Of a stretch of DNA of 64,000 nucleotides, positions 1,739 to 44,237 are shown piece after piece. The notes under the pieces are model-generated. The model saw only the letters and a program-made list of their open reading frames with translations, did not search any database and was not told where the DNA came from. A program made the translations under genes and the position numbers. This DNA comes from a virus. Position 1 is the first letter of the stretch; the number at the start of each line of letters is the position of its first letter. The stretch is from IMG/VR virus record IMGVR_UViG_3300045988_101367, positions 11,047-75,046 of that record; one strand, given 5' to 3'.

Positions 1739-2656
1739 TTAATATACAATAGGTTTACGTCTCGCTACTTTTAATTGTTGTTTTTTCTTTTTGTAGTAGT
1801 CAGCAAGCATACGTTCTACTTCATCTTTTCGATAAATACAATGATATAGAGTATTTTTCATATTATGATCATAATGATTAAGAATTAAATCTTTAATCAC
1901 ATATTCTGGATGTCTCTGTTGAAGCATAAATGCATAAGTAGAAAGTTGCATCTCATAGTGACCATAATTGCAATCCTCAATAGTGTTTAAAGGGTATTGC
2001 ATTTTAGTAGTACCTCTAGTAACTGTATTAAATCCTCCTTTTAAGTCTATTTTTTTATTAGTTTTATGGTCTACAATAGTAACTTCATTACCATATTTAA
2101 CCATTAAATCAATTTGTCCTGCTAAGTTTAAAACATTATCAGGAGTAGACCAGGAAATTAAATACTCAGGATATACACCATTTTCTAAGTCTAATTTAGT
2201 ATATCCCTCTTTACATATAAATTTACCTCCTAATCCAAATTTCTGTAAAGGCTTATCATCCTTCATATTGTAAAAAGAATGTTCTAATTGAGAATGAATT
2301 TTTGTTCCTCTCTCACAAGACTCTATTTTATTAGCTTCCCATTCATCAAGAATGTTCTGTTGTTCCTTATTAAGGTCATTAATGTCTACAGAATAAGCCT
2401 CTAAAATTTCTTTAGTAATTCTGTGTGTATTAAGTAAAGTCTTTTTTAAATCTTTCCATACATCTGTATCTAGAATTTTTTCCAAAGCTTTATACTTAGA
2501 CCAAAAATCTGAATCAAAAGGTTGTGCATAACTTCCTATTAAAGTAGTTACTGAGATATACTCTTTTTTTGGATTATTAATATCCCAATAAACGTGAGTA
2601 GAATCATTGAAAGCTACTCCATCATTTTCTTTATCAATCTTCATTGTCATTGCCAT
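1739..2656 (-). CDS. PD-(D/E)XK family nuclease (RecB/Cas4/YqaJ-like fold)
   Basis: Motif GQIDLMV-x12-TIVDHKT fits D...(D/E)XK; 305-aa ORF from the track. Confidence 0.5.
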   Translation of the reverse strand: MAMTMKIDKENDGVAFNDSTHVYWDINNPKKEYISVTTLIGSYAQPFDSDFWSKYKALEKILDTDVWKDLKKTLLNTHRITKEILEAYSVDINDLNKEQQNILDEWEANKIESCERGTKIHSQLEHSFYNMKDDKPLQKFGLGGKFICKEGYTKLDLENGVYPEYLISWSTPDNVLNLAGQIDLMVKYGNEVTIVDHKTNKKIDLKGGFNTVTRGTTKMQYPLNTIEDCNYGHYEMQLSTYAFMLQQRHPEYVIKDLILNHYDHNMKNTLYHCIYRKDEVERMLADYYKKKKQQLKVARRKPIVY

Positions 2657-3344
2657 TTACAGTATCATCAAGTATTGTAGATAATCGTTGAATTTGTGGA
2701 GAAATAACTGTATTATAATAACCTAACTCATATTGTTTAGGCTATTTATACAAAACTACTATTATTCCTATAGGATTTCTAACTCCTTCTATAGGATATA
2801 AAGCAGCTGAGTATGCCCCACTCTATTCTAACTTTTTATATAATCTAGGGAAAGTGTTTTTAATTTGAGGAAGACTATCAACTCTTAAATAAGTAGTATC
2901 ATCAATTTTACTTAATTCTTCTTGGTAATTAGTATACTATAAAGTCTACCAATAATCTCCGACATATTCATCAGAATATGATTTTACACTTTCTCTTATA
3001 CAATCTAAATAAATATAACTAAAACCCTGTAAGCTATGCTTAGTATTATGATAACTTAATAGCAAAACATTACTACAATCAGGATCTTTTATTTTTATAT
3101 TATCAATACACTAAGCTATATAAGGAGCTTGTTTAAATCCATTATCTTCTTCTTTACGTAATTCTTCTTTCTATTTTTTTAAAGCACTAGAAAGAGTTTC
3201 TTCATAATAACTTCTAGGAATTGGATTTAGTATAAATATTAATAATACAAAAATAATTATAGTTTTAGTTTCTGAAGTTAAGTTGGAAATAAGATTCCAT
3301 AATTTTTTTAAATAATCTAAAATAACCATTACAATTTTTTCCAT
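2634..3344 (-). CDS. hypothetical late protein (~236 aa) with several in-frame TAG
   Basis: ATG at 3344-3342 and TGA at 2636-2634. Gene length is a multiple of 3 only in the TAG-readthrough frame; it overlaps the nuclease gene start. Confidence 0.4.
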
Positions 3345-3490
3345 ATTACTATAAGTAATATTTGTATATATGTTATCTATAATAACATTATTACTATATT
3401 TAATAGGTAAAGTTATTATTATTTTGTACTATTTAAGTATATATATAGGTTATTTATATTCAAAAGTATTTTAATCTTATTTATTACATT
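3345..3490. promoter_or_regulatory. divergent intergenic region between minus-strand and plus-strand late operons
   Basis: AT-rich 146-bp gap with genes diverging on both sides; no specific promoter motif verified. Confidence 0.25.
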
Positions 3491-4255
3491 ATGACTAATT
3501 CTGAATTACAAGAAAGAATTTGTTCTGCCTATTAGGATTTTAAGATTAAAAATCAGTATAGTTTTATAAATAAACTAAAGAAAGGCGGATAGATAAAAGA
3601 TAGAAAAGATACTATTCATATAAAAGATAAAAATAAGGGTAAGTTTACTGCCTCAGCTAAAGCAGCTGGAGAATCTGTACAGGAGCATGCTAAATCTATA
3701 TTAAATAATCCTAATGCTACTCCTTTACAAAAACGTCGAGCTAATTTTGCTAGAAATGCTGCTAAATGGAAACATGCTAATGGAGGCACTATTCTTAAAA
3801 TGTAGTTAGCAGGTAAGATGCCTGGAACTAGGAGTCAATATAATAATGTGACTTAGATATATCAAGCTTTAGTAGATAAAGGAGTTACCCCACAGGCAGC
3901 TTTAGATTTAACTAACCAAAAGGTTGCAGAAAAAGGTTGGACTGGATTCGCTACTGGAGATAATAAAAAATATCCTAATGCACAATCTTTTGCAGACCAT
4001 ATAATTAATTGGCATAGTAGAATGTATCCAGACTCACTTAAAGCCTAGAATTTTTAGTAGTACTATGATGGAATACAAAAAAATGCTAAGTACATGTATA
4101 ACTCTGAAAAAGGCTATAATGGTTACAGAAAAGATTTATTACTTACAAGACCTGGGGTAAAGAAAAGAATTAATTATTATAGAGCTACTAAAGGATTAGG
4201 ACCATTAGCTTTAGTTAATTTTAATTAGCCTGGTAATTATTCTAGTTATGCGTAA
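3491..4255 (+). CDS. hypothetical late/virion protein (254 aa) with 7 in-frame TAG
   Basis: Continuous protein-like frame MTNSELQERICSAY(Q)DFKIKN...GWTGFATGDNKKYPNAQSFADHIINWHSRMYP... only if TAG is sense; ends TAA 4253-4255. Confidence 0.45.
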
Positions 4256-4493
4256 GAATAAATATTATAAAGAAAATAAAAAGATTTTAAATGAACATAA
4301 AACACAATGTATAATATGTGGTGAATCAGCTAAATGTTGTTTAGAATTTCATCATACTGGAGAAAAATTATTTAATATATCACAAGCTGTAAGTCATATA
4401 CCTACAGATTTATTTATTAAAGAATTATCTCAAACAGTTTGTGTTTGTAAAAATTGTCATTCTAAAATACATAATGGTTTGATAAAATTATGA
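4248..4493 (+). CDS. HNH endonuclease (small, free-standing)
   Basis: CIICGESAKCC-LEFHH-x-N...CKNCHSKIH matches the HNH zinc-finger nuclease signature; standard code; overlaps neighbours by a few nt. Confidence 0.6.
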   Translation: MRKNKYYKENKKILNEHKTQCIICGESAKCCLEFHHTGEKLFNISQAVSHIPTDLFIKELSQTVCVCKNCHSKIHNGLIKL

Positions 4494-5152
4494 GTGAATA
4501 TTTTAAATATGAAGCTTTAGATATTCCTGATAAACCTGCTACAGAAGTACTAAAAAGTAAAGGTTTAGATTTAGATTTTACTCCTAAACAATATTAGTAT
4601 ATTCCTGAATTAAATACTGGAGATTTTCATATTAATGGTTTAAATTTAGATGGATATTTTTCTATTAATAAAGCTAAAGAGCCTGTACAATATAAATATA
4701 CTCAGCTTAAATTAAACCATAATACTCCTAGTAAAAATAAATAGGTACTAGAATAGACTTTAGATAAATATGGTATCACTGGAAACAAGAAAACTACTTT
4801 AATGAAGATAGCTTCTCTAGAATCAGGATTTAATTCTAAAGCTCAATCTAAAAATAGTTCTGCTGCTGGATGGTTCTAGTTTATAGATAGTACTAGAAAT
4901 AAATATTCTAATTTATCTAGAGAACAGTTTAAAAATAGTCCTGATGCACAAGTATTAGCCGCATCACAATTATATGATGATAATGCAAGATTTTTAAGAA
5001 ATAATGGTATAGCAGCTACTGGAGAAGCTATAGCAGCATCATGGTTAAATCCAAAATGGACTAAAAATTATTATAAGTATGGTATTGCAGGAGGGTCTGA
5101 TGCCAATGGTACTAGTGTTGCAAAATATATAAATAAATTTAGAAATGCCTAA
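4490..5152 (+). CDS. lytic transglycosylase (SLT-domain) peptidoglycan hydrolase, TAG-recoded
   Basis: LESGFNSKAQSKNSSAAGWF(Q)FIDSTRNKY matches the SLT ES...AxGLMQ motif. The motif Gln is encoded by TAG, which supports TAG=Gln. Confidence 0.6.
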
Positions 5153-5788
5153 AATTTTGGAAGAATTGGATCGTCAAGTAGATAAATGGGAACCTACCGC
5201 GGCAGCTATATCTTTAGGTAGTTTAGGACTAGGTGCAGGTATAAGTACTACCGCTGTAGGTGCTCCTATAGGAGGAATTATTGCTGGAGTAGGTTAGTTG
5301 CCTTCTTTAGTTATAGATGGTTATCAAGCTGGTAGAGGATGGTACAAGACTTTTAAAGAATCCCCAAGTAATTTTGGAAATGCCGTATGGAATACTTTGG
5401 AAACTGGGGCAGATATATTAGGAGCTAAATTTGCATCAGCTTTAGCTAAGGGAGGTTCTAATTTTCTTAGATCTAGCGTATACAAACCTGGTTATTACCC
5501 TAAACATCATTCTCCAAGAGTTAATGCTATGCGAAAGAGACAAGTCGACGTAGTATTAAATTAGCAGAAAAAGAAGCTACTGAAAAATTGGCTAAAAGAG
5601 GAGTTCGATCAAGTCAAGGTTCATACTTTACATCTAAATTAAACTAGGAATTAAATAAACCTTATTTAGAGTAGGTAGCTAAAAGGAATACTGTAGTAGC
5701 AAATGATGTTACTAAATTAAGTCCTAAAATATAGTTACCTATTTAGATTATACCTAATATTATTGATATACATGCCAGAAATAAATAA
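5145..5788 (+). CDS. Gly/Ala-rich membrane-associated late protein; reading frame switches -1 between about 5525 and 5564
   Basis: Frame 0 gives MPKILEELDRQVDKWEPTAAAISLGSLGLGAGISTTAVGAPIGGIIAGVG(Q)LPSLVIDGYQAGRGWY.... A protein-like frame with 5 TAG continues in the -1 frame (…AEKEATEKLAKRGVRSSQGSYFTSKLN(Q)ELNKPYLE(Q)VAKRNTVVANDVTKLSPKI(Q)LPI(Q)IIPNIIDIHARNK) to TAA 5786-5788 and has no ATG of its own. Confidence 0.3.
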
Positions 5789-6287
5789 TAATAATTATAA
5801 TATTTGGAATAAATAGTTATCTCAAGCATGGGGTAATTAGGATTTATCTAAAGACCATTACGATTATAGAAAATACTATAATGACCAACCTATAGTAGCT
5901 TGGCTATAGTTAAATAGTATTCTAGCACATAATTGGAATAGGTATATTCCTACTGGGCATTTTCCTGATGAAGGAGCTTCAGGGACTTATAAAACTAAAA
6001 CTCATCCGACTTATCCAGATTTAGGAGATAAATCTTGGAGTAGAGATAATAAGATATATTATTTAAGTAAAGATCAATATATAAAACCTAATAGTGGTTA
6101 GCCTTTAGATTATACTATGGACTATCTAGGTTCCGATTATGACTATAATAATGGTGGAACTAAAGTAGTTTATGATGGAGCTAATGTTCTCCCAACATTG
6201 TATATTACTAAAACTAAAGGTAGTGGATTTAATTTAAAACCCAATAAAAATAATAATGGATACATATATTTTGACAGAAAAGATTGA
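5772..6287 (+). CDS. hypothetical late protein (171 aa), TAG-recoded
   Basis: MPEINNNNYNIWNK(Q)LSQAWGN(Q)DLSKDHYDYRKYYNDQPIVAWL(Q)LNSILAHNWNRYIPTGHFPDEGASGTYKTKTHPTYPDLGDKSW...; ends TGA 6285-6287. Confidence 0.45.
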
Positions 6288-6471
6288 GGAATTACAAAGA
6301 TTTTTAGATTTTGTAAGTGAGAGGGATAAATAGTTATGGGATAAATATTTAAAAAAATATGAAACAGGTGATTAAAACTGGAAAAGGATTACTATGGAAA
6401 ATAGAACACCCAGTAGAAATATCATATTCTAAGATTACTCTAGATTCTTTATTAAAACTATGTGAAAAAAT

Positions 6472-6687
6472 ATGAAATAGTTTTTAATTAAATTAATAAC
6501 AGCACATACTGGAATAAGTAGTAAAAGAGTGTGTGGAATATTAGGATGGATAGTAAGTTTAATTATTCTAATATACTGTTCTATTAGTTAGATACAAGCT
6601 CCTGATATGATAGATACAGTTTTATATTGTTGTATGGGATTACTAGGTATAGATAGTATAACTAGTATATGGAAAAATAAAGTATAA
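6472..6687 (+). CDS. small two-TM membrane protein (holin-like candidate), 2 in-frame TAG
   Basis: MK(Q)FLIKLITAHTGISSKRVCGILGWIVSLIILIYCSIS(Q)IQAPDMIDTVLYCCMGLLGIDSITSIWKNKV; two hydrophobic helices. Confidence 0.3.
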
Positions 6688-6689
6688 AT

Positions 6690-7826
6690 ATGCCAATAGT
6701 AGATGAGAGTAAACAAAATAAAGGAGTAAATAATAATACTCGGAATAAATAGATGGCTATAGATATGGAATATTATAATAGATTAAATCATCCTAGATTT
6801 AAATCTTCATATCTTGGTGCTAAATATTAGTAGAGAGTTATTCCCGTTAGAACTTTAAATGGGGTACAAGATGTATTTGTAGATAATAGAGGGACTATAA
6901 AATAGGGTGGGCATACTAATTTTAAATTATATAATTATAGTAATAAGAATAGAACCCATCCTATAAAAGGAGCTTATGCTAGAGAAGTAGATAGTTGGAA
7001 TAATAATACTAGTCCTATTAAAGCATTAGTTAATTCAGGAATAGGTTATGCTTTAGCTCCAGCTGCTTAGGCAGTATATGATTATACTAAAGGTGCTTTA
7101 GATATATCTAAGAATCTAACTAAAGCTAGTAATTATTTAGTAATGCTTCCTGTAATAGGATATGCTGTAAAAGTTCCTTTAAAACGTGGAGTAGAAGTAG
7201 CTATGAGAACTTCTAATAATGCGAATCCTATAGAAGACATAGTATATAATATGCATAAGGCAAGTCCTAAAAAACATGCTGGAGTATTTTCTTATATATC
7301 AACTGGTGTAGGTTACAATACCTATGCTCCTGAAGCATATACTGGATTTTAGAAAGCAGCTAAAGGCAATGATATGATTGATGCTTATTTATATAATAAA
7401 ACTATAAATCCTTCTTATGGAGTAAGAAAGATAAATGTAGATTATGGTCCACATGAAAATTATATAAGAAAGATATATCCTTATAAAGATATTCCTGTAT
7501 ATGAAAATACAGAAACTTTAGATTTCTTTACTAAGAAACCTATGTAGAAAGCTTCTAATATAACTAATAAAACTCCTTGGAAAGGTGCTAATAATAATCT
7601 AGATTTTGGAGATAATGGAGTTGAGGCTGCTGGACATTTAGTTTAGGAAGGAACATCTAATGGTAAGAAAGTATATAGAGCACAAGATATTTGGAAGTTT
7701 AATCCTGATGAATATAAGTAGAAATGGAGTTCATATGATTTAGACAGTAAAGCTGTATTAGGATTAAAAATATTAGATAAATTAGGAACTCCAGTAATAG
7801 TAAGAACACCATGGCTGTATAGATAA
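6690..7826 (+). CDS. hypothetical late/structural protein (378 aa) with about 9 in-frame TAG
   Basis: ATG 6690 to TAA 7824-7826 is a multiple of 3. The frame is continuous and protein-like, and includes track ORF 7143-7352, only when TAG is sense. Confidence 0.5.
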
Positions 7827-8042
7827 TTACTGATAATGATTCAATACTGATATGAAGATGGGTAGTTGTATGGTAGAAGAAAATCAAATAAGATCCCTTT
7901 TAAAATTAATTCTGATAAAGCTAATAGTATAATATTTCCATAGGTTTAGGCTAAAGGAGTAGATCCTAACATCTACTTTAGTATACCACTCGGCAAAATA
8001 TAAAGAAATGCCCACTGCTAAAAAAATATCTACTCCTAAATA

Positions 8043-8918
8043 GAAAGAAGAAACAATAGTGGTAAATAGTTGATTAATTTAGTAGGAAATGGATTAAGTA
8101 GAAAACTATAGTTATTTTTTGATTCAGAACCTGAGCATACTAGTAAAAGAATTAAAATTCCTAATAAAAAAGTAACTAGAAATAAGAGGAGAGAAAATTT
8201 AGAAATAGAAATATCTCCAAATAGTTATACTATAAATGATACTACTAAAATAAACTCTAGAAGATATCGTATACCAGAATCCATAAATTTAACAAAGTAT
8301 ACTTTTGGTTATAGAAATAGAGGTGATTATACTCCTATAAATAGTATAGCAGCTCCTATTACTGCTTTTTCTAATTTCAAATCTAAAGAAAGTATATCTC
8401 CTAATAATTAGAATTATATAGGTATAGATTCTATTGGTAAATTTGTTTTTGGTAAATATTCAGATATTCCTAATGGAAGTATGATTTCTCCAACATTTAA
8501 AAATATAGTTACTGGTTTTAAAACAGATTCTAAAGATAATGTATTATTCATGGAAAGTAATTCTAATGGTTCTAAAAAAAGTCCTATATTAAATGCTATA
8601 GTAAATGGTAAATCTGTAAATAACAGATTAAATTTCTTAGCTAATAATAATAGAACTGATGAATATGGTTCTATAGCTGGAGGAAGAATAATTATATAGG
8701 CTGGTAAAGAAGTTCGTTTAGTTTCTGGAAGTATAGATAATATTAGAGATGAGATAGAGGCTATGAAATCTAGAAACAATGTTAAAACAGTAGATTTATA
8801 TACTCTAGATAATGGTACTTATCATTCAGGATTAAGAACCTTTGATAAAATATTTACCAGAGATGATTTATTAGAATATGATGCTGGTGGAGGAAATTTT
8901 TTGTATATAAAGCAATAA
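8043..8918 (+). CDS. hypothetical late protein, C-terminal ~290 aa; start unresolved
   Basis: Frame open from 8043 with TAG as sense and includes track ORF 8481-8699. No ATG in the first ~60 codons. An upstream short ORF 8008-8073 lies in the +1 frame, so a -1 shift or indel is possible. Ends TAA 8916-8918. Confidence 0.35.
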
Positions 8919-9444: not shown

Positions 9445-9445
9445 G

Positions 9446-9517
9446 TTCTCCCACAAGGATTCGAACCCTGACTAAAAGATTTAGAGTCTTCTGTGCTAAC
9501 CATTACACCATAGGAGA
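9446..9517 (-). tRNA. tRNA-Sup(CUA), amber suppressor
   Basis: Hand-folded cloverleaf: acceptor TCTCCTA/TGGGAGA, D-stem GTGT/GCAC, anticodon stem GAAGA/TCTTT with loop CTCTAAA (U33, anticodon CTA, A37), T-arm CAGGG-TTCGAAT-CCTTG, discriminator A. No CCA encoded. Confidence 0.7.
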
Positions 9518-16240: not shown

Positions 16241-16324
16241 ACGGTAGTAGCTCAGTGGTTAGAGCATCTCTTTTTATAATAGGTCATTTCGAGAAGGTCA
16301 TTGGTTCGAATCCTTTCTACCGTA
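16241..16324 (+). tRNA. tRNA-like gene, long extra arm, anticodon loop TTTTATA (nominal anticodon UUA)
   Basis: Acceptor ACGGTAG/CTACCGT perfect, D-arm GCTC-AGTGGTTA-GAGC, weak anticodon stem TCTCT/ATAGG (one mismatch), same unusual T-arm ATTGG-TTCGAAT-CCTTT as the 15731 gene. Confidence 0.3.
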
Positions 16325-16406
16325 CAAATTTAATTTGATATATTGTTAGTGTGTTTGGATAAATCCTGTATTAGTACGTTACCACTATTCTCCTTTATAG
16401 AAATGT

Positions 16407-27321: not shown

Positions 27322-27654
27322 GGGGCATTCGTGGTTTTGATTGTATAGGAGATAAGAAACACAGCAAGACAGTTGGAGAGACAACAAAACAATAATCGCT
27401 AGAGTTATCAATATGACTCCTGTTTCTTACGCTATTGCAGCCTAAGAAACCGAGCAGCACTTGCTTGGGAACGGAAAGGTGCATTATTCTTTTATTTCTT
27501 TATTAGTTCTCTGTATACTTTAGGAACAGAGTGGTGGAAGTTGGCAATGTTAATCTTGTCAACCCTAACAGACAAGGATAGTCTTTAAAACCTATGCTGT
27601 AAGAACGTTTTGATGCAAATATGCAAGACTGGAGTTCGACTCTCCAATGCTCCA
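27322..27654 (+). ncRNA. ssrA: tmRNA (SsrA-like) candidate
   Basis: 5' GGGGCAT pairs with 3' ATGCTCC (one G-U), giving a tRNA-like acceptor with discriminator A. 3' T-arm TGGAG-TTCGACT-CTCCA. Internal tag-like reading frame ...aat atg act cct gtt tct tac gct att gca gcc TAA (…SYAIAA*) resembles the ...YALAA tmRNA tag ending. No protein ORF in the region. Confidence 0.55.
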
Positions 27655-27688
27655 CTAGTTCATAGAACTATTTTATTATTTGTTTTTA

Positions 27689-40797: not shown

Positions 40798-40896
40798 ACT
40801 TAGTTTGTTTGAAATTAATAAAGCGAATCTTAACTCATAAGTATTATGTTGCTAAATATTGCTTTCAAATAGGATTATATTGGCAAGGTATTACTC

Positions 40897-41196
40897 ATGA
40901 TTTGTCTAAATTTAGTTTTACAGAATTTTCAAGAGCTATTAAGTATTGGGATACATTCCTTAGATAATGGAGAAATTCCTGCTAAAATGCCTAAAAAATA
41001 TGTTCTAGAACTTATATGTGATTATTTAGCAGCAGCTAAAACATATGGAGCTGACCCTAGAAGAGAATATACATGGTGGCTTAAACAACAGCCTCATATG
41101 AAAATCCACAAAAAAACTAAGAGTTATATAACTGAAGTGTTTTATAAATATAGTATAGGTTTAACATTAAAAGAATCAATTAATGGAAATTATTAA
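40897..41196 (+). CDS. hypothetical protein (99 aa)
   Basis: Track ORF. Confidence 0.35.
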   Translation: MICLNLVLQNFQELLSIGIHSLDNGEIPAKMPKKYVLELICDYLAAAKTYGADPRREYTWWLKQQPHMKIHKKTKSYITEVFYKYSIGLTLKESINGNY

Positions 41197-42473
41197 TGCA
41201 ACTGATGGCTACAAGCTTGGTCATCATCGTATGTACCCAGAGGGTACACAAATGGTCTATAGTAATTGGACTCCTAGAAGTAATCGTTACTTCCCAGAAG
41301 CTACAGAAGGTTCTGTAGTATTTGGTATTCAGTACTTTGTAAAGAAGTATTTGATAGAGGAATTTAACAAATGGTTTGCTCTTCCTAAGGAAGAAGCTAT
41401 TAAGCAATTTGCTTATCGTGTAGGCAACTTTGTAGACCTTAATCAGGTTGGAACAAAACATATTGAAGAACTTTATGATTTGGGGTATCTTCCTATTGAA
41501 ATTAAAGCTCTTCCTGAAGGTTCTATCTGCCCTATAAGAGTGCCTATGATGACTATTAAGAACACTCTTCCTGATTTCTTCTGGTTGACTAATTACTTGG
41601 AAACTTTAATTAGTTGTACTCTATGGCTCCCTTGTACTTCTGCAACAAGTGCTCGTCTTTATAAGAAGAGACTTATAGAACATGCTAGAAAGACTGGATT
41701 CCCAGAGGAAGTAAATCTAGGTTTCTCTTGTCACGATTTCTCAATGAGAGGTATGGCAGGACTTGATGCTGCTATTATCTCTGGTATGGCTCATATGACT
41801 TCATTCTGTGGTAGTGAAACAATTCCTGCTATTGAAGCAGTAGAACATTATTACAATGCAAATGTTACTGAAGAACTTGTAGCTGCAACTGTTCCGGCTT
41901 CAGAACATTCAGTAATGTGCGCAGGAGGTGAGGATGGTGAGATTGAAACATACCGCCGTCTTATTAATGACCTATATCCAACAGGTATTATCTCAATAGT
42001 ATCTGATACTTGGGATTTTTGGCAGGTAGTTGAGAAATTCTTGCCTAAGCTTAAGGCAGATATTATGAAACGTGTTGGTCGAGTAGTAATTCGTCCTGAT
42101 AGTGGTGATCCAGTAGACATTATTTGTGGTCTTCGTACAAATCCTCACTATCATACTGCTATGAAAGAAGGTAAGTATTACTGTGATTTTAATCCATTTA
42201 TGGACGATGATGAAAATCATTATGTAGAAGTATCTGAAGGTCAGTACTATGGAGCATATTATATGCTAGGAAAAATCTTTGGATGGAATACTACTGTAAA
42301 TGACTATCGTTATCCAAGTACCAAGGTTGGATTACTTTATGGAGATTCTATTACTCTGGAGCGTCAGCGTGATATCTATGCTAGATTGGAAAACGCTCAT
42401 ATGGCAGCTTGTAATCTTGTTCTAGGTATTGGATCTTATACTTATCAGTTTAAGAGTAGGGATTCACTTGGCT
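41183..42473 (+). CDS. nicotinamide phosphoribosyltransferase-like enzyme (NAMPT family; Namat-type candidate), exon 1
   Basis: N-terminus MEIINATDGYKLGHHRMYPEGTQMVYSNWTPRS matches the NAMPT start (…[23 protein letters not shown]…). The frame stops 7 codons after ...SRDSLG inside the intron. Confidence 0.65.
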
Positions 42474-42686
42474 TAACTGCGAGGCCCTTTATATAGTAAT
42501 GTATATCGAATAACCGGAAGAATTGCTGGGAAGAGTTTGTTAATTCTTAATCAGCAGCCGAGCCACAGGGAAGACTGAGGAAGGTTCAGAGACTAAGGAC
42601 ACTACGGTGAGCCTACAGCCTCCGGAATCCCTAAATATAGGGATTATGATATAGTCCATAAAAATTAACATAATTTAGCTTTTATG
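42474..42686 (+). mobile_element. group I self-splicing intron (IA2-like core, no ORF), 213 nt
   Basis: Contains P (ccggaagaattgctgggaagag), Q (aatcagcagcc), R (ggttcagagactaa) and S (gatatagtcc) consensus-like elements. 5' exon ...cttggcU can pair with gaGGCC (P1 with U-G at the splice site). Intron ends in G before tcgcag...; splicing restores the NAMPT C-terminus in frame. Confidence 0.65.
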
Positions 42687-42949
42687 TCGCAGTAAAAGCA
42701 ACTGCTTGTATAATTAATGGAAAGCTTATAGAAATCTATAAGCATCCAAAGACTGATGATGGAACAAAGAACTCTCTCAAAGGTCTTATTAGAATTGAAG
42801 AAGAGAATGGTAAGTATGTCGCTTATGACCAGCAGACTAAGGATGCAGAACTGCAAGGTTGTCTTAAAACAGTCTTTGTAGATGGAGAATTAGTAAGAGA
42901 ATATTCTCTTTCTGAGATTCGTGAACGTGTAAATTCAACATTAGTATGA
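42687..42949 (+). CDS. NAMPT-family enzyme, exon 2 (C-terminal 87 aa)
   Basis: …FAVKATACIINGKLIEIYKHPKTDDGTKNSLKGLIRIE…CLKTVFVDGELVREYSLSEIRERV aligns with the NAMPT C-terminus (…[29 protein letters not shown]…[21 protein letters not shown]). Confidence 0.6.
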
Positions 42950-43440
42950 TAGAAATTGTTAATGGAGATTTACTTCAGTCAAATTTACCTCTTATAGCCC
43001 ATCAAACTAATTGTTTAGGAGTAATGGGGGCAGGTATAGCTAAGGCTATTAAAAATAAATGGAATAGCGTATATACACGATATGCCAATTATTGTAAATA
43101 TTTTAAATATTCTAAAGAATTATTAGGGAAATGTCAAGTATGTATAACAGGAGATGAACCTATTAATCTCGTAGCTAATTTATTTGGAGAATATTCTTTT
43201 ACTGAATCAGTAGCTCCCTATGAAAATAGACATACTGATTATGATGCTCTTAAAAAAGCTTTATTAGATTTAAAAGACTTTTGTAAAGATAACGAGATTA
43301 CAGAGATAGGCATTCCTTATAAATTAGGATGTGGATTAGCAGGAGGAGATTGGGACGGAGTAGTTTATCCTATGCTCCAAGAACTTTTTGCTAATGATTT
43401 AACAATAACCCTTTATATTTATAAATTATGCAACAATTAA
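42946..43440 (+). CDS. macro domain protein (ADP-ribose binding/processing)
   Basis: GDLLQSNLPLIAHQTNCLGVMGAGIAKAIKNKW matches the macro-domain GDIT…VNAAN…GGGVxGAI pattern. Confidence 0.55.
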   Translation: MIEIVNGDLLQSNLPLIAHQTNCLGVMGAGIAKAIKNKWNSVYTRYANYCKYFKYSKELLGKCQVCITGDEPINLVANLFGEYSFTESVAPYENRHTDYDALKKALLDLKDFCKDNEITEIGIPYKLGCGLAGGDWDGVVYPMLQELFANDLTITLYIYKLCNN

Positions 43441-44237
43441 ATTTAGTACATTTAGAAGATAGTGATATTAAGTATTCTATCTCTAGATTCCCTGATGGAG
43501 AAGTTCAAATTTCATTAGAAGAATTCAGTCATAAGGAGCAAGTATTAGTTAACTGTAGAGTTACTAATGCTGAAGACTTATTTATACTTATACAAGTTTT
43601 AGATATTCTTGATAGACATGAAGTTCTGTATAAGTTAAATATCTATTACTTAATGAGTATGAGAATGGATAGAGTAATGGATTTCAATAGACCATTCACT
43701 TTAAAAATAGTCTTAAACATATTAAAAAATTGTAATGCAGAGACTATTGAAATTTTAGAACCTCATTCTGATGTTTATTATGATCCTAGATTCGGAGTTA
43801 AATTTATGCCTCTCTATAGTGAAAAGAATCCATCTAATAATACTTGGAAAGAATTTCAATTAGTTTTCCCAGATGCTGGAGCTGTAAAGAGAAATGAATT
43901 CAGATATAATCGCGTAGGAATTACTTGTAGTAAAGTCCGAGATTTAACTACTGGAAAAATCTTAGAGATTAAAATAGATAATCCTGAAAATATACAGGAT
44001 AAACCTCTGTTAATTCTTGATGATTTATGTGATGGTGGTGGAACCTTCTGTGGTATTGCTAAAGCATTTAATGCTTTAGGTATTTCTAAAGAGCGTTTAA
44101 ATATTGCAGTTACTCATATGGTAAATTCTAAGGGTATAAAGAATCTGTCAGAAAATTTTAATCACGTATGGTTTACTAATTCTTATAAAGACTGGGACAA
44201 TCTTCCTGAGAATGTTACAATGTTTAAGGTTATCTAA
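43428..44237 (+). CDS. ribose-phosphate pyrophosphokinase (PRPP synthetase) family enzyme; Adps-type candidate
   Basis: FPDGE (cf. Prs FSDGE), PDAG and the PRPP-binding loop DDLCDGGGT (cf. DDMIDTGGT). Confidence 0.65.
   Translation: MQQLNLVHLEDSDIKYSISRFPDGEVQISLEEFSHKEQVLVNCRVTNAEDLFILIQVLDILDRHEVLYKLNIYYLMSMRMDRVMDFNRPFTLKIVLNILKNCNAETIEILEPHSDVYYDPRFGVKFMPLYSEKNPSNNTWKEFQLVFPDAGAVKRNEFRYNRVGITCSKVRDLTTGKILEIKIDNPENIQDKPLLILDDLCDGGGTFCGIAKAFNALGISKERLNIAVTHMVNSKGIKNLSENFNHVWFTNSYKDWDNLPENVTMFKVI

What the first reader, a model, noticed from the sequence alone, without database searches (positions are those of the whole stretch)
41183..44237. NAD+ reconstitution (NARP1-like) module: NAMPT-family transferase + macro domain + PRPP-synthetase-family kinase
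Adjacent genes encode a NAMPT-like protein (N-terminal ATDGYKLGHH…, C-terminal TVFVDGELVREYSLSEIRERV), a macro-domain protein, and a Prs-like protein (FPDGE, DDLCDGGGT). The recently described phage NARP1 counter-defence uses a Prs homolog (ADPR pyrophosphokinase) together with a NAMPT homolog (nicotinamide-ADPR transferase) to rebuild NAD+ after depletion by Thoeris, DSR and similar systems. This would be that pair with a macro domain inserted between the two enzymes, which is not part of the minimal described pathway and could process ADP-ribose derivatives. The transferase gene also carries a group I intron.
Basis: partly seen in the sequence, partly recalled or inferred. Interest (0 to 1): 0.75.

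Follow-up and report, generated by a model that had tools for sequence, protein, structure and literature searches.

The report
Phage NAD+ rebuilding operon with phosphatase
A human-gut phage carries a three-gene operon that most likely rebuilds NAD+ after bacterial defences destroy it; this kind of operon (NARP1-AP) was described in 2026, so this is a new example rather than a new system, with a self-splicing intron in one gene as a small twist.

Summary
On the + strand, 41183-44237 encodes a NAMPT-family protein interrupted by a 213-nt group I intron (42474-42686), then a 164-aa macro-domain protein, then a 269-aa Prs-family protein. The genes overlap at their start and stop codons.

By sequence these are Namat, Adpp and Adps. 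That is the three-enzyme 'NARP1 with associated phosphatase' (NARP1-AP) described by Osterman et al. (bioRxiv 10.64898/2026.01.28.702374).

- **Namat:** it carries the signature motif (GSYTYQFKSRD). It scores 476 bits to the SPbetaL1 Namat structure against about 207 bits to human/rat NAMPT.
- **Adps:** the Prs-like protein groups with validated Adps and apart from true Prs in 200/200 bootstraps.
- **Adpp:** the macro protein is 38% identical, full length, to the validated ADPR-1''-phosphate phosphatase of Vibrio phage Gary.
- **Essential residues:** all four residues whose mutation kills the Gary operon are conserved here.

The Namat-macro-Adps order is already in that paper's table. The intron is real. 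Intronless alleles, a compensatory P1 change, a 6-bp P10 helix and a LAGLIDADG-bearing copy in relatives all support it.

Verdict: a new member of a known kind, from a human-gut phage lineage. Enzyme activities are inferred, not tested.

The parts
41183..42473 (+). Namat (nicotinamide ADP-ribose transferase, NAMPT family), exon 1: codons 1-430 plus the first base of codon 431
   Evidence: Pfam NAMPT_N + NAPRTase and NCBIfam PRK09198 422 bits. The best solved structure is 9W5X/9W5W, the SPbetaL1 Namat, at 476 bits, against about 207 bits for human/rat NAMPT. The exon holds the catalytic His242, the SCL Arg35 and the SCH motif GSYTYQFKSRD. It ends on the U of a U.G pair in P1.
42474..42686 (+). 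Group I intron, 213 nt, with no ORF (lacks a homing endonuclease gene)
   Evidence: Rfam RF00028 58.9 bits against a gathering score of 50. P1 pairs exon GGCU with IGS GGCC. P10 pairs IGS CUGCGA with the first six exon-2 bases, UCGCAG. The last intron base is G. Nine relatives carry the uninterrupted gene reading ...SRDSLGFAVKAT.... L103 carries the same intron (96.7% over 212 nt) with a compensatory P1 change and a LAGLIDADG ORF.
42687..42949 (+). Namat exon 2 (last 87 codons plus the TGA stop)
   Evidence: The spliced product aligns without a gap across the junction to the SPbetaL1 Namat (GIGSFTYQYNTRDTFGFAMKAT) and through to the C-terminus. The stop codon overlaps the macro gene's start codon as ATGA.
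42946..43440 (+). Adpp-like macro-domain protein (predicted ADP-ribose-1''-phosphate phosphatase), 164 aa
   Evidence: Pfam Macro 36.6 bits and phrog_335 'phosphatase' 135.6 bits. It is 38% identical over its full length to Vibrio phage Gary KNV71_gp137, the validated Adpp (E 5e-27). Gary H24 and N27, whose mutation abolishes function, correspond to H19 and N22 here. It also matches yeast Poa1p structures weakly (6LFU, E 8e-5).
43428..44237 (+). Adps-like protein (predicted ADP-ribose pyrophosphokinase, Prs family), 269 aa
   Evidence: It falls below every NCBIfam Prs cutoff (TIGR01251 71 bits; E. coli Prs scores 423, Gary Adps 100). In an NJ tree it groups with the validated Gary and SPbetaL1 Adps, apart from five true Prs, in 200/200 bootstraps. 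Lys169 corresponds to Gary K192. It has the Adps-type motifs EPHS and DDLCDGGGT. It overlaps the macro gene by 13 nt.

Best explanation
This is a NARP1-AP operon: a phage counter-defence that rebuilds NAD+ from the fragments left by NAD+-depleting bacterial immune systems.

Proposed mechanism, all inferred from homology to tested enzymes:
1. Adps (43428-44237) uses ATP to pyrophosphorylate ADP-ribose, giving ADPR-pyrophosphate.
2. Namat (41183-42473 plus 42687-42949) joins ADPR-PP to nicotinamide and yields NAD+ directly.
3. The macro protein Adpp (42946-43440) removes the 1''-phosphate from ADPR-1''-phosphate. That compound is the product of RES-domain (aRES) NADases, and plain NARP1 cannot use it. 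Adpp therefore feeds ADPR into step 1.

The three genes are translationally overlapped in one + strand gene array. Full-length Namat requires removal of a 213-nt group I intron that sits five codons after the adenine-clamp motif. The phage is from the human gut. A Bacteroidales host is inferred only, from the nearest homologs.
For: Shown by sequence:
- **Namat versus Nampt.** The window protein scores 476 bits to the SPbetaL1 Namat crystal structure (9W5X/9W5W) against about 207 bits to human/rat NAMPT. Over about 400 aa it is 45.7% identical (376 bits) to SPbetaL1 Namat, against 28.5% (162 bits) to the NARP2 Nampt of KVP40. The Namat-specific motif GSX-phi-X-phi-X-phi-TRD, with aromatic X residues (PMC12774641), reads GSYTYQFKSRD here. 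KVP40 Nampt has GMGGGLLQQLDRD at that position. Arg35 aligns with the adenine-stacking Arg40.
- **Adps versus Prs.** The split between phage Adps sequences (including both biochemically validated ones) and Prs has 200/200 bootstrap support. All NCBIfam Prs models score below cutoff, as they do for Gary Adps.
- **Adpp.** It is 38% identical over its full length to the purified, assayed Gary enzyme (paper text).
- **Essential residues.** The four residues whose mutation abolishes Gary NARP1-AP function (Adpp H24 and N27, Adps K192, Namat H243) are all conserved here.
- **Operon definition.** The definition used in the paper is a macro Pfam hit within two genes of an Adps/Namat pair. It is met here. 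The Namat-macro-Adps order is already listed there, for example in Vibrio phage RYC.
- **Conservation.** The layout is conserved in 17 IMG/VR contigs of this lineage and, in a different gene order, in two contigs of 345 and 412 kb.
- **No NARP2 partner.** tblastn with KVP40 Nmnat gives E > 5. No CTP_transf_like or NUDIX Pfam hit appears among 61 ORFs.
- **Plausible trigger.** The paper's table of predicted aRES carriers includes Bacteroides thetaiotaomicron and Prevotella.
- **Intron.** Evidence.
Against: - No activity was measured. All chemistry is inferred from 26-46% identical homologs.
- The motif's Thr is Ser here (KSRD instead of xTRD).
- Close macro homologs also occur alone, away from NARP1. 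Geobacillus virus E3 has one at 42.7% identity. Sequence alone therefore does not fix the substrate.
- The macro protein also hits the DarG macro model (62.7 bits, far below its cutoff of 250).
- My Adps/Prs tree is a small NJ tree: 13 sequences, two of them partial and copied from printed alignments.
- Only 64 kb of a genome of about 145 kb was searched for Nmnat.
- Relatives with a deleted or split Namat show that the module is dispensable or decaying in part of the population.
- Splicing of the intron was not demonstrated.
Confidence: 0.8

Rival explanations
1. The Adps/Namat pair is a working NARP1, but the macro protein has another job. It might reverse ADP-ribosylation of DNA or protein (DarG/TARG1-like), or hydrolyse another ADPR derivative such as O-acetyl-ADPR, instead of dephosphorylating ADPR-1''-phosphate.
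For: - The NCBIfam DarG macro model matches (62.7 bits, E 3.5e-17).
- The best PDB matches are BT1257, a DarG-type 'RNase III inhibitor' macro, SCO6735 and TARG1 (35-41 bits). Poa1p scores lower, at 25.6 bits.
- Homologs at about 40% identity occur outside NARP1 operons (Geobacillus virus E3).
Against: - It is much closer to the assayed Gary Adpp (86.7 bits, 38% identity, full length) than to any of those proteins.
- Gary Adpp itself also hits the DarG model (34.9 bits), so that hit does not discriminate.
- The residues corresponding to Gary H24 and N27 are conserved.
- The gene is overlapped on both sides by Namat and Adps. It stays linked to them across 17 related contigs and, in a rearranged order, in two large phage contigs.
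- It lacks the DarT-binding half of DarG (164 aa against 338).
Confidence: 0.12
2. The genes are ordinary NAD salvage enzymes. A true Prs makes PRPP and a true NadV/Nampt makes NMN, boosting host salvage (NARP2-like) with a host or distant phage NMN adenylyltransferase.
For: - Database names say so (phrog_448 'nicotinamide phosphoribosyl transferase', phrog_619 'ribose-phosphate pyrophosphokinase').
- phrog_619 also matches E. coli Prs (193 bits).
- Namat enzymes retain some PRPP activity in vitro (PMC12774641).
- Only 64 kb of the genome was searched for Nmnat.
Against: - The Prs-like protein scores 71 bits on TIGR01251, where E. coli Prs scores 423. It separates from Prs in 200/200 bootstraps.
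- The Namat clamp motif is present. The protein is about twice as similar to Namat as to KVP40 or human/rat Nampt.
- No Nmnat or Nudix gene was found in the window.
- According to Osterman et al. 2024, 97% of Adps-clade genes sit next to a Namat gene, whereas bacterial prs genes only rarely do.
Confidence: 0.04
3. The module is a decaying remnant. The intron does not splice efficiently, so Namat is truncated at 437 aa and the pathway is inactive in this phage.
For: - One close relative has deleted nearly all of Namat (MT835492.1).
- Another has an internal deletion of about 63 aa (MT836666.1).
- Five have Namat split into two ORFs.
- The intron has lost its homing endonuclease gene.
Against: - The intron keeps a full catalytic core above Rfam's gathering score, an intact P1 with a U.G pair, a 6-bp P10 and a terminal G.
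- Both exons are intact and in frame. Exon 1 is 97-99.8% identical to that of intronless alleles.
- The exact Adps protein was read on 18 human-gut metagenome contigs. The one shown has the same intron-bearing layout.
Confidence: 0.04

Closest known systems
NARP1-AP (Adps + Adpp + Namat) of Vibrio phage Gary; Osterman et al., bioRxiv 10.64898/2026.01.28.702374
   Same: The same three protein families sit in one tight operon. Identities to the Gary proteins are 38-40% for Adpp, 30% for Adps and 43% for Namat. All four mutationally essential residues are conserved. The macro gene lies between or next to the two core genes.
   Different: The gene order is Namat-Adpp-Adps. Gary has Adps-Adpp-Namat, although the window's order is listed for Vibrio phage RYC and others. 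The window comes from a human-gut phage lineage that is absent from the paper's Table S1, which lists mainly Vibrio and Pseudomonas phages with some Acinetobacter and Pseudoalteromonas. Namat carries a group I intron. Activity is untested here.
NARP1 of Bacillus phage SPbetaL1 and E. coli phage Bas63 (Osterman et al. 2024; Namat structures 9W5X/9W5W, PMC12774641)
   Same: The window has an Adps/Namat pair and the Namat selectivity-clamp motif (GSFTYQYNTRD in SPbetaL1, GSYTYQFKSRD here). It also has the SCL arginine, the catalytic His and the Adps catalytic Lys.
   Different: The window has a third, macro, gene. Its Namat has an insertion of about 40 aa after DSGDPVDIICG; Gary Namat is also longer there. 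The motif's Thr is Ser. An intron is present.
NARP2 (Nampt + Nmnat) of Vibrio phage KVP40
   Same: It includes a NAMPT-family enzyme and has the same purpose, restoring NAD+.
   Different: The window has no Nmnat. Its transferase is only 28.5% identical to KVP40 Nampt and carries the Namat motif, which KVP40 lacks. A Prs-family Adps is present in place of Nmnat.
Poa1p (yeast ADP-ribose-1''-phosphate phosphatase) and the TARG1/DarG macro subfamily
   Same: They share the macro fold family. The window protein gives weak direct matches to Poa1p structures (6LFU, E 8e-5) and stronger ones to TARG1/DarG-type macros.
   Different: These are distant relatives (25-41 bits). The window protein is phage-encoded, is a single 164-aa domain, and has no DarT partner or DarT-binding domain.
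Phage group I introns with homing endonucleases (Staphylococcus Twort-like phages, crAss-like phages)
   Same: The intron matches Rfam RF00028. Stretches are similar to sequences in Dulem virus 41 (81% over 116 nt), crAss-like cr131_1 and Staphylococcus phage records, lying in or next to polymerase/primase, major head and terminase genes. It is inserted in a highly conserved coding stretch. A LAGLIDADG-bearing copy exists in a relative.
   Different: The host gene is Namat. My one literature search returned three papers, none about an intron in this gene family by title or abstract; I did not read them. The window copy has lost the endonuclease ORF, apparently by deletion between (A/G)CTTTTAT direct repeats.

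Membership tests
NARP1 (Adps + Namat) | A Prs-family protein that belongs to the Adps clade, separate from cellular Prs | tested here: met
   In an NJ tree of 13 sequences, 8 phage proteins (including the validated Gary and SPbetaL1 Adps) split from 5 Prs in 200/200 bootstraps. TIGR01251 scores 71 bits here, 100 for Gary Adps and 423 for E. coli Prs, against a cutoff of 113. Sampling is small and the method is NJ only.
NARP1 (Adps + Namat) | [quoted passage not shown] | tested here: met
   The window reads G-S-Y-T-Y-Q-F-K-S-R-D, with aromatic residues at positions 3, 5 and 7. Position 9 is Ser instead of Thr. The NARP2 Nampt of KVP40 has GMGGGLLQQLDRD.
NARP1 (Adps + Namat) | Selectivity-clamp loop (beta1-beta2) that supplies an Arg/Lys/Tyr stacking residue | tested here: met
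   Window TPRSNR(35)YF aligns with SPbetaL1 TPRTSR(40)VE (residue roles). This rests on alignment only. No structure was modelled.
NARP1 (Adps + Namat) | Adps and Namat genes lie in close proximity (within 10 genes) | tested here: met
   The two genes are separated by one 164-aa gene, and the reading frames overlap.
NARP1 (Adps + Namat) | Catalytic residues: the Namat His (Gary H243, equivalent to the phosphorylated catalytic His of Nampt) and the Adps Lys (Gary K192, SPbetaL1 K162, B. subtilis Prs K197) | tested here: met
   Window Namat H242 and Adps K169 align with them.
NARP1 (Adps + Namat) | Enzyme activities: ADPR + ATP gives ADPR-PP; ADPR-PP + nicotinamide gives NAD+; no PRPP synthesis | not testable with these tools
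   This needs purified proteins with LC-MS or an NAD-Glo assay.
NARP1-AP (NARP1 with associated phosphatase) | A macro-domain protein (PF01661, PF14519 or PF20016) within two genes of the NARP1 pair | tested here: met
   PF01661 scores 36.6 bits against a cutoff of 22. The gene lies between Namat and Adps. The criterion is quoted.
NARP1-AP (NARP1 with associated phosphatase) | Homology to the validated Adpp, with the functionally essential His and Asn (Gary H24, N27) | tested here: met
   38% identity, E 5e-27, full length. H19 and N22 lie in the motif AHQTNC, against AHQCNC in Gary.
NARP1-AP (NARP1 with associated phosphatase) | ADPR-1''-phosphate phosphatase activity, and rescue from aRES defence | not testable with these tools
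   This needs the enzyme assay and phage infection assays.
Group I intron (Rfam RF00028) | A covariance-model score at or above the gathering score | tested here: met
   58.9 bits against 50 when 651 nt are searched. The hit is lost to the speed filters in the whole-window search and in a three-locus search of relatives.
Group I intron (Rfam RF00028) | A U.G pair at the 5' splice site in P1, a terminal G, and P10 pairing with the 3' exon | tested here: met
   The 5' exon ends ...GGCU and pairs with the IGS GGCC. P10 pairs CUGCGA with UCGCAG (6 bp). The last intron base is G42686. The L103 copy has exon GGGU with IGS GCCC, a compensatory change.
Group I intron (Rfam RF00028) | Alleles of the same gene exist with and without the insert, and the junction restores the conserved protein | tested here: met
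   Nine IMG/VR relatives have an uninterrupted gene. L090 reads GGT TTC GCA, equal to the predicted ligated exons, and gives RDSLGFAVKAT. This matches the SPbetaL1 Namat alignment.
Group I intron (Rfam RF00028) | Self-splicing | not testable with these tools
   This needs in vitro transcription with GTP, or RT-PCR.
NARP2 (Nampt + Nmnat) | An NMN adenylyltransferase (Nmnat/NadR-type) partner gene | tested here: not met
   tblastn with KVP40 Nmnat gives a best E of 5.5. No CTP_transf_like or NUDIX Pfam hit appears among 61 ORFs of at least 90 aa. Only this 64-kb window was searched.
Canonical ribose-phosphate pyrophosphokinase (Prs) | Reaches the curated NCBIfam cutoffs for Prs | tested here: not met
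   The best results are TIGR01251 at 71 bits against 113 and PRK01259 at 51.5 against 297. E. coli Prs scores 423 and 533 on the same models.
DarG antitoxin (DNA ADP-ribosyl glycohydrolase) | Reaches the NF048014 cutoff and has the C-terminal DarT-binding domain | tested here: not met
   62.7 bits against a cutoff of 250. The protein is 164 aa against a 338-position model, so only the macro part matches. I did not search for a DarT-like gene; the adjacent genes are Namat and Adps.

The most novel reading that the evidence does not exclude
In this gut-phage lineage the accessory slot between Namat and Adps may be a swappable 'feeder' position.

- The window lineage has a macro phosphatase there.
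- crAss-like phages carry a small unrelated DxDxT (HAD-like) protein at the same position.
- Mobile elements keep breaking and repairing Namat. These include a group I intron with or without a LAGLIDADG gene, and an insert that splits the gene in two.

If the macro enzyme here, or the crAss-like substitute, processes an ADPR derivative other than ADPR-1''-phosphate, that would point to a still-unknown non-canonical NADase defence in Bacteroidales. It would also define a new NARP1 variant.
Probability: 0.12. Interest if true: 0.55.

Novelty: new member of a known kind. Interest (0 to 1): 0.3.

Why it matters
This instance extends NARP1-AP beyond the phages where it was described (mainly Vibrio and Pseudomonas, with some Acinetobacter and Pseudoalteromonas) to an abundant human-gut phage lineage. 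The exact Adps protein was read on 18 gut-metagenome contigs. That implies NAD+-depleting defences, probably including RES-type enzymes that make ADPR-1''-phosphate, are a real selective pressure in gut bacteria.

The population-level variation is a natural experiment on how dispensable and how mobile this counter-defence is. Alleles with the intron, without it, with intron plus endonuclease, with a split Namat and with Namat deleted all coexist. It also gives ready-made intronless sequences for cloning.

The finding does not change the understanding of the pathway itself.

Tried and rejected
- **Rfam at larger scale.** The whole-window searches (gathering and E-value modes) and a three-locus search of relatives all miss the intron because of the speed filters. 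Only the 651-nt search finds it. I therefore cannot say whether the window holds other introns. A search for the core motif GGTTCAGAGACTA found only this copy.\n- **Alternative 3' splice site.** The end of the Rfam alignment (G42678) would imply a different site. I rejected it because it forces the junction ...LGFFYVAVK..., gives no P10 pairing, and disagrees with intronless alleles and the SPbetaL1 alignment.\n- **PHROG membership.** phrog_619 does not separate Adps from Prs, since E. coli Prs scores 193 bits on it. I did not use it as a test.\n- **genome-contig scan.** The scan with E. coli Prs returned only Gammaproteobacteria at 80% identity or more. Outgroup diversity had to be supplemented with partial B. 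subtilis and Sulfolobus sequences copied from printed PDB alignments.\n- **Bootstrap method.** Biopython's rooted-clade support gave meaningless zeros. I recomputed support as unrooted splits.\n- **Promoter scan.** It was not above shuffled expectation (36 found against 40 expected) and was not used.\n- **DAC15 gp037.** I tested it as a possible divergent macro domain and rejected that: no Pfam hit, and BLASTP E 0.5 against the window macro.\n- **Split Namat in relatives.** I considered an intein or a second intron. No intein-like termini are visible by eye, and a three-locus Rfam scan gave no hit, though that scan also missed the known intron copy in L103. This is left as 'gene in pieces', unresolved.\n- **Structure prediction.** Not run. 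Sequence identity to assayed enzymes already answers the family question, and a fold model would not fix substrate specificity.

Full report
**Observation.** The coordinates and quoted peptides are correct.
- On the + strand, ORF 41183-42496 begins MEIINATDGYKLGHH. It matches Pfam NAMPT_N and NAPRTase, NCBIfam PRK09198 (422 bits) and phrog_448.
- ORF 42946-43440 (164 aa) matches Pfam Macro at 36.6 bits against a cutoff of 22.
- ORF 43428-44237 (269 aa) contains FPDGE and DDLCDGGGT. It matches Prs-family models only weakly.
- The C-terminal peptide TVFVDGELVREYSLSEIRERV is encoded downstream of the first ORF's stop, in frame with the TGA at 42947-42949.
- When 42350-43000 is searched alone, Rfam's group I intron model scores 58.9 bits against a gathering score of 50, E 2e-14.

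**Gene structure and the intron.** I place the intron at 42474-42686 (213 nt).
- The 5' exon ends on the U of a U.G pair in P1 (exon GGCU paired with the internal guide GGCC).
- The intron ends in G.
- The first six bases of exon 2 (UCGCAG) are perfectly complementary to the guide segment CUGCGA next to P1, which forms a 6-bp P10.
- The spliced gene encodes 517 aa and reads ...GIGSYTYQFKSRDSLG-F-AVKATACIINGK... across the junction. This aligns without a gap to the SPbetaL1 Namat.
- Nine related IMG/VR contigs carry the uninterrupted gene. L090, for example, reads GGT TTC GCA at the junction.
- One relative (L103) has the same intron at 96.7% identity over 212 nt. Its exon reads GGGU and its guide reads GCCC, a compensatory change that supports P1.
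- The L103 copy continues for about 1 kb and encodes a LAGLIDADG endonuclease (PF00961, 40 bits).
- The window copy lacks that ORF. The boundaries fit a deletion between (A/G)CTTTTAT direct repeats.
- Parts of the intron resemble sequences that lie in or next to polymerase/primase, major-head and terminase genes in crAss-like and Staphylococcus phage records.
- The alternative 3' site suggested by the end of the Rfam alignment (42678) is rejected. It adds residues, has no P10 and contradicts the intronless alleles.

**What the three proteins are.**

*Namat.*
- The best solved structures are 9W5X/9W5W at 476 bits. The depositing paper identifies these as the SPbetaL1 Namat.
- Human and rat NAMPT score about 207 bits.
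- Over the same ~400 residues, the window protein is 45.7% identical to SPbetaL1 Namat and 28.5% identical to the NARP2 Nampt of KVP40.
- The structural paper (PMC12774641) defines a Namat-specific clamp motif, GSX-phi-X-phi-X-phi-TRD, with aromatic X residues that stack on the adenine of ADPR-PP. It also defines a loop Arg/Lys/Tyr.
- The window reads GSYTYQFKSRD, and Arg35 aligns with the stacking Arg40. KVP40 Nampt reads GMGGGLLQQLDRD.

*Adps.*
- It scores below every curated Prs cutoff. On TIGR01251 it scores 71 bits, where the validated Gary Adps scores 100 and E. coli Prs scores 423.
- I built a neighbour-joining tree of eight phage proteins (including both biochemically validated Adps) and five Prs. 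The phage/Prs split was recovered in 200 of 200 bootstraps.
- The window protein clusters with gut-phage homologs, including crAss-like DAC15 gp038.
- The phage group shares [ED]PHS and DDxxDGG motifs where Prs has DLHA and DDxIDTGGT.

*Macro protein (Adpp).*
- It is 38% identical (E 5e-27) over its whole length to KNV71_gp137 of Vibrio phage Gary.

**Comparison with what is known.** A January 2026 preprint from the Sorek laboratory (10.64898/2026.01.28.702374) reports the following.
- RES-domain defence proteins (aRES) cleave NAD+ to nicotinamide and ADPR-1''-phosphate.
- Plain NARP1 cannot use that product.
- 15% of 859 phage NARP1 operons carry a macro-domain gene.
- The macro product (Adpp; the purified protein was Gary gp137) dephosphorylates ADPR-1''-phosphate to ADPR.
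- The three-gene operon is named NARP1-AP.

The operon definition (a macro Pfam hit within two genes of an Adps/Namat pair) is met here. The Namat-macro-Adps order is already in their Table S1. Their strain list gives the inactivating mutations Adpp H24A and N27A, Adps K192A and Namat H243A. The aligned window residues are H19, N22, K169 and H242, all conserved.

A second 2026 preprint shows another accessory enzyme (RyDEP) inserted in a NARP1 locus. It feeds ADPR into the pathway from cyclic ADPR signals. Accessory 'feeder' genes are therefore an established theme.

**Rivals.**
- *Canonical salvage (NARP2-like).* This is disfavoured by the tests above. In addition, no Nmnat was found in the window (tblastn E > 5), and there are no CTP_transf_like or NUDIX hits among 61 ORFs. 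Only 64 kb of a genome of about 145 kb was visible.
- *A different role for the macro protein.* This cannot be excluded by sequence. It also matches the DarG macro model (62.7 bits against a cutoff of 250). Its best PDB matches are TARG1/DarG-type macros. A 42.7%-identical homolog in Geobacillus virus E3 stands alone. Against this, Gary Adpp shows the same DarG cross-match. The window gene is also overlapped by Namat and Adps on both sides and stays linked to them in 17 contigs of this lineage. In two contigs of 345 and 412 kb the three genes are linked in a different order.
- *Decay.* This is suggested by relatives with damaged Namat but contradicted by the intact exons and intron core here.

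**Context.**
- The window is AT-rich (about 30% GC). Almost all genes are on the + strand, and it has 12 tRNAs and a tmRNA.
- The closest GenBank record is an unannotated human-faecal phage scaffold, MT835492.1.
- The exact Adps protein was read on 18 human-gut metagenome contigs. The one shown, a 144.6-kb contig, has the same intron-bearing layout.
- The nearest characterised homologs of Namat and Adps are in crAss-like Bacteroides phages (62% and 46-47%). Namat is about 52% and Adps about 37% identical to those of Prevotella Lak phages.
- A Bacteroidales host is therefore an inference.
- The preprint's list of predicted aRES carriers includes B. thetaiotaomicron and Prevotella.

**Verdict.** The module is a sequence-level member of NARP1-AP, a kind already described. 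The new points are the gut-phage lineage and the intron (with its endonuclease polymorphism) in Namat. The enzymology is inferred, not shown. Interest is modest.

Noticed in passing
window 9445-9517 (-), 16241-16325 (+), and 2600-8900: Two suppressor-type tRNAs are present, with anticodons CTA (reads TAG) and TTA (reads TAA). In code 11, the stretch 2.6-8.4 kb has no ORF of 90 aa or more. Reading TAG as sense gives five ORFs of 225-381 aa between 2.6 and 8.9 kb. This suggests stop-codon recoding in part of the genome.
   Followed up: partly
window 27322-27657: A phage-encoded tmRNA is present (Rfam RF00023, 49.1 bits against 47; ARAGORN tag peptide ARVINMTPVSYAIAA).
   Followed up: no
L002 (MT835492.1) 7337-7522: The closest GenBank relative has a deletion. 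It fuses the N-terminus of the upstream DUF5662 gene to the last 29 codons of Namat (...LYWQG|CLKTVFVDGELV...). Nearly all of Namat is removed, while Adpp (85% identical) and Adps (95% identical) remain intact.
   Followed up: partly
L089, L091, L092, L094, L103 (IMG/VR), e.g. L089 1723-4004: In five relatives Namat is in two ORFs, broken just after the catalytic-His motif EHSV. Each piece has new tail or head residues. The insert is about 690 nt in L089 and about 170 nt in L091 and L103. In L089 it holds a short ORF with a WHLDHIRP (HNH-like by eye) motif but no Pfam hit. It looks like a 'gene in pieces' produced by a mobile element. Whether the halves work together is unknown.
   Followed up: partly
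L004 (Bacteroides phage DAC15) 6484-6912; L003 (MT836666.1) 6328-6522: In crAss-like phages the slot between Namat and Adps holds a different small protein, not a macro gene. DAC15 gp037 is 142 aa, matches phrog_1238 at 64.6 bits, has no Pfam or PDB match, and contains DFDNT, which looks like HAD motif I by eye. MT836666 keeps a 64-aa remnant that is 65% identical. It may be a non-homologous accessory enzyme of NARP1.
   Followed up: partly
L003 (MT836666.1) 5001-6365: This relative's Namat (80% identical) has no intron. It lacks about 63 residues right after RDSLGFAIK, which is exactly at the intron insertion site. It also has no macro gene.
   Followed up: no
window 40809-41196: The DUF5662 gene just upstream of Namat lies in two overlapping frames (40809-40967 and 40897-41196). 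It lacks about 34 residues, including HHRGRNPHH, relative to the intact 170-aa copy in MT836666. The same broken layout is conserved in the IMG/VR relatives.
   Followed up: partly
window (ORF not located): One ORF of at least 90 aa elsewhere in the window matches Pfam LAGLIDADG_3 (E 1.3e-5). It is unrelated to the L103 intron endonuclease. It hints at other mobile elements or introns that the filtered Rfam scans would miss.
   Followed up: no
L105, L107 (IMG/VR contigs of 345 and 412 kb): Very large phage contigs carry Adps, Namat and, about 1 kb further on, an Adpp homolog (52-56% identical to the window's). NARP1-AP therefore also occurs in megaphage-sized genomes, in a different gene order.
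   Followed up: no
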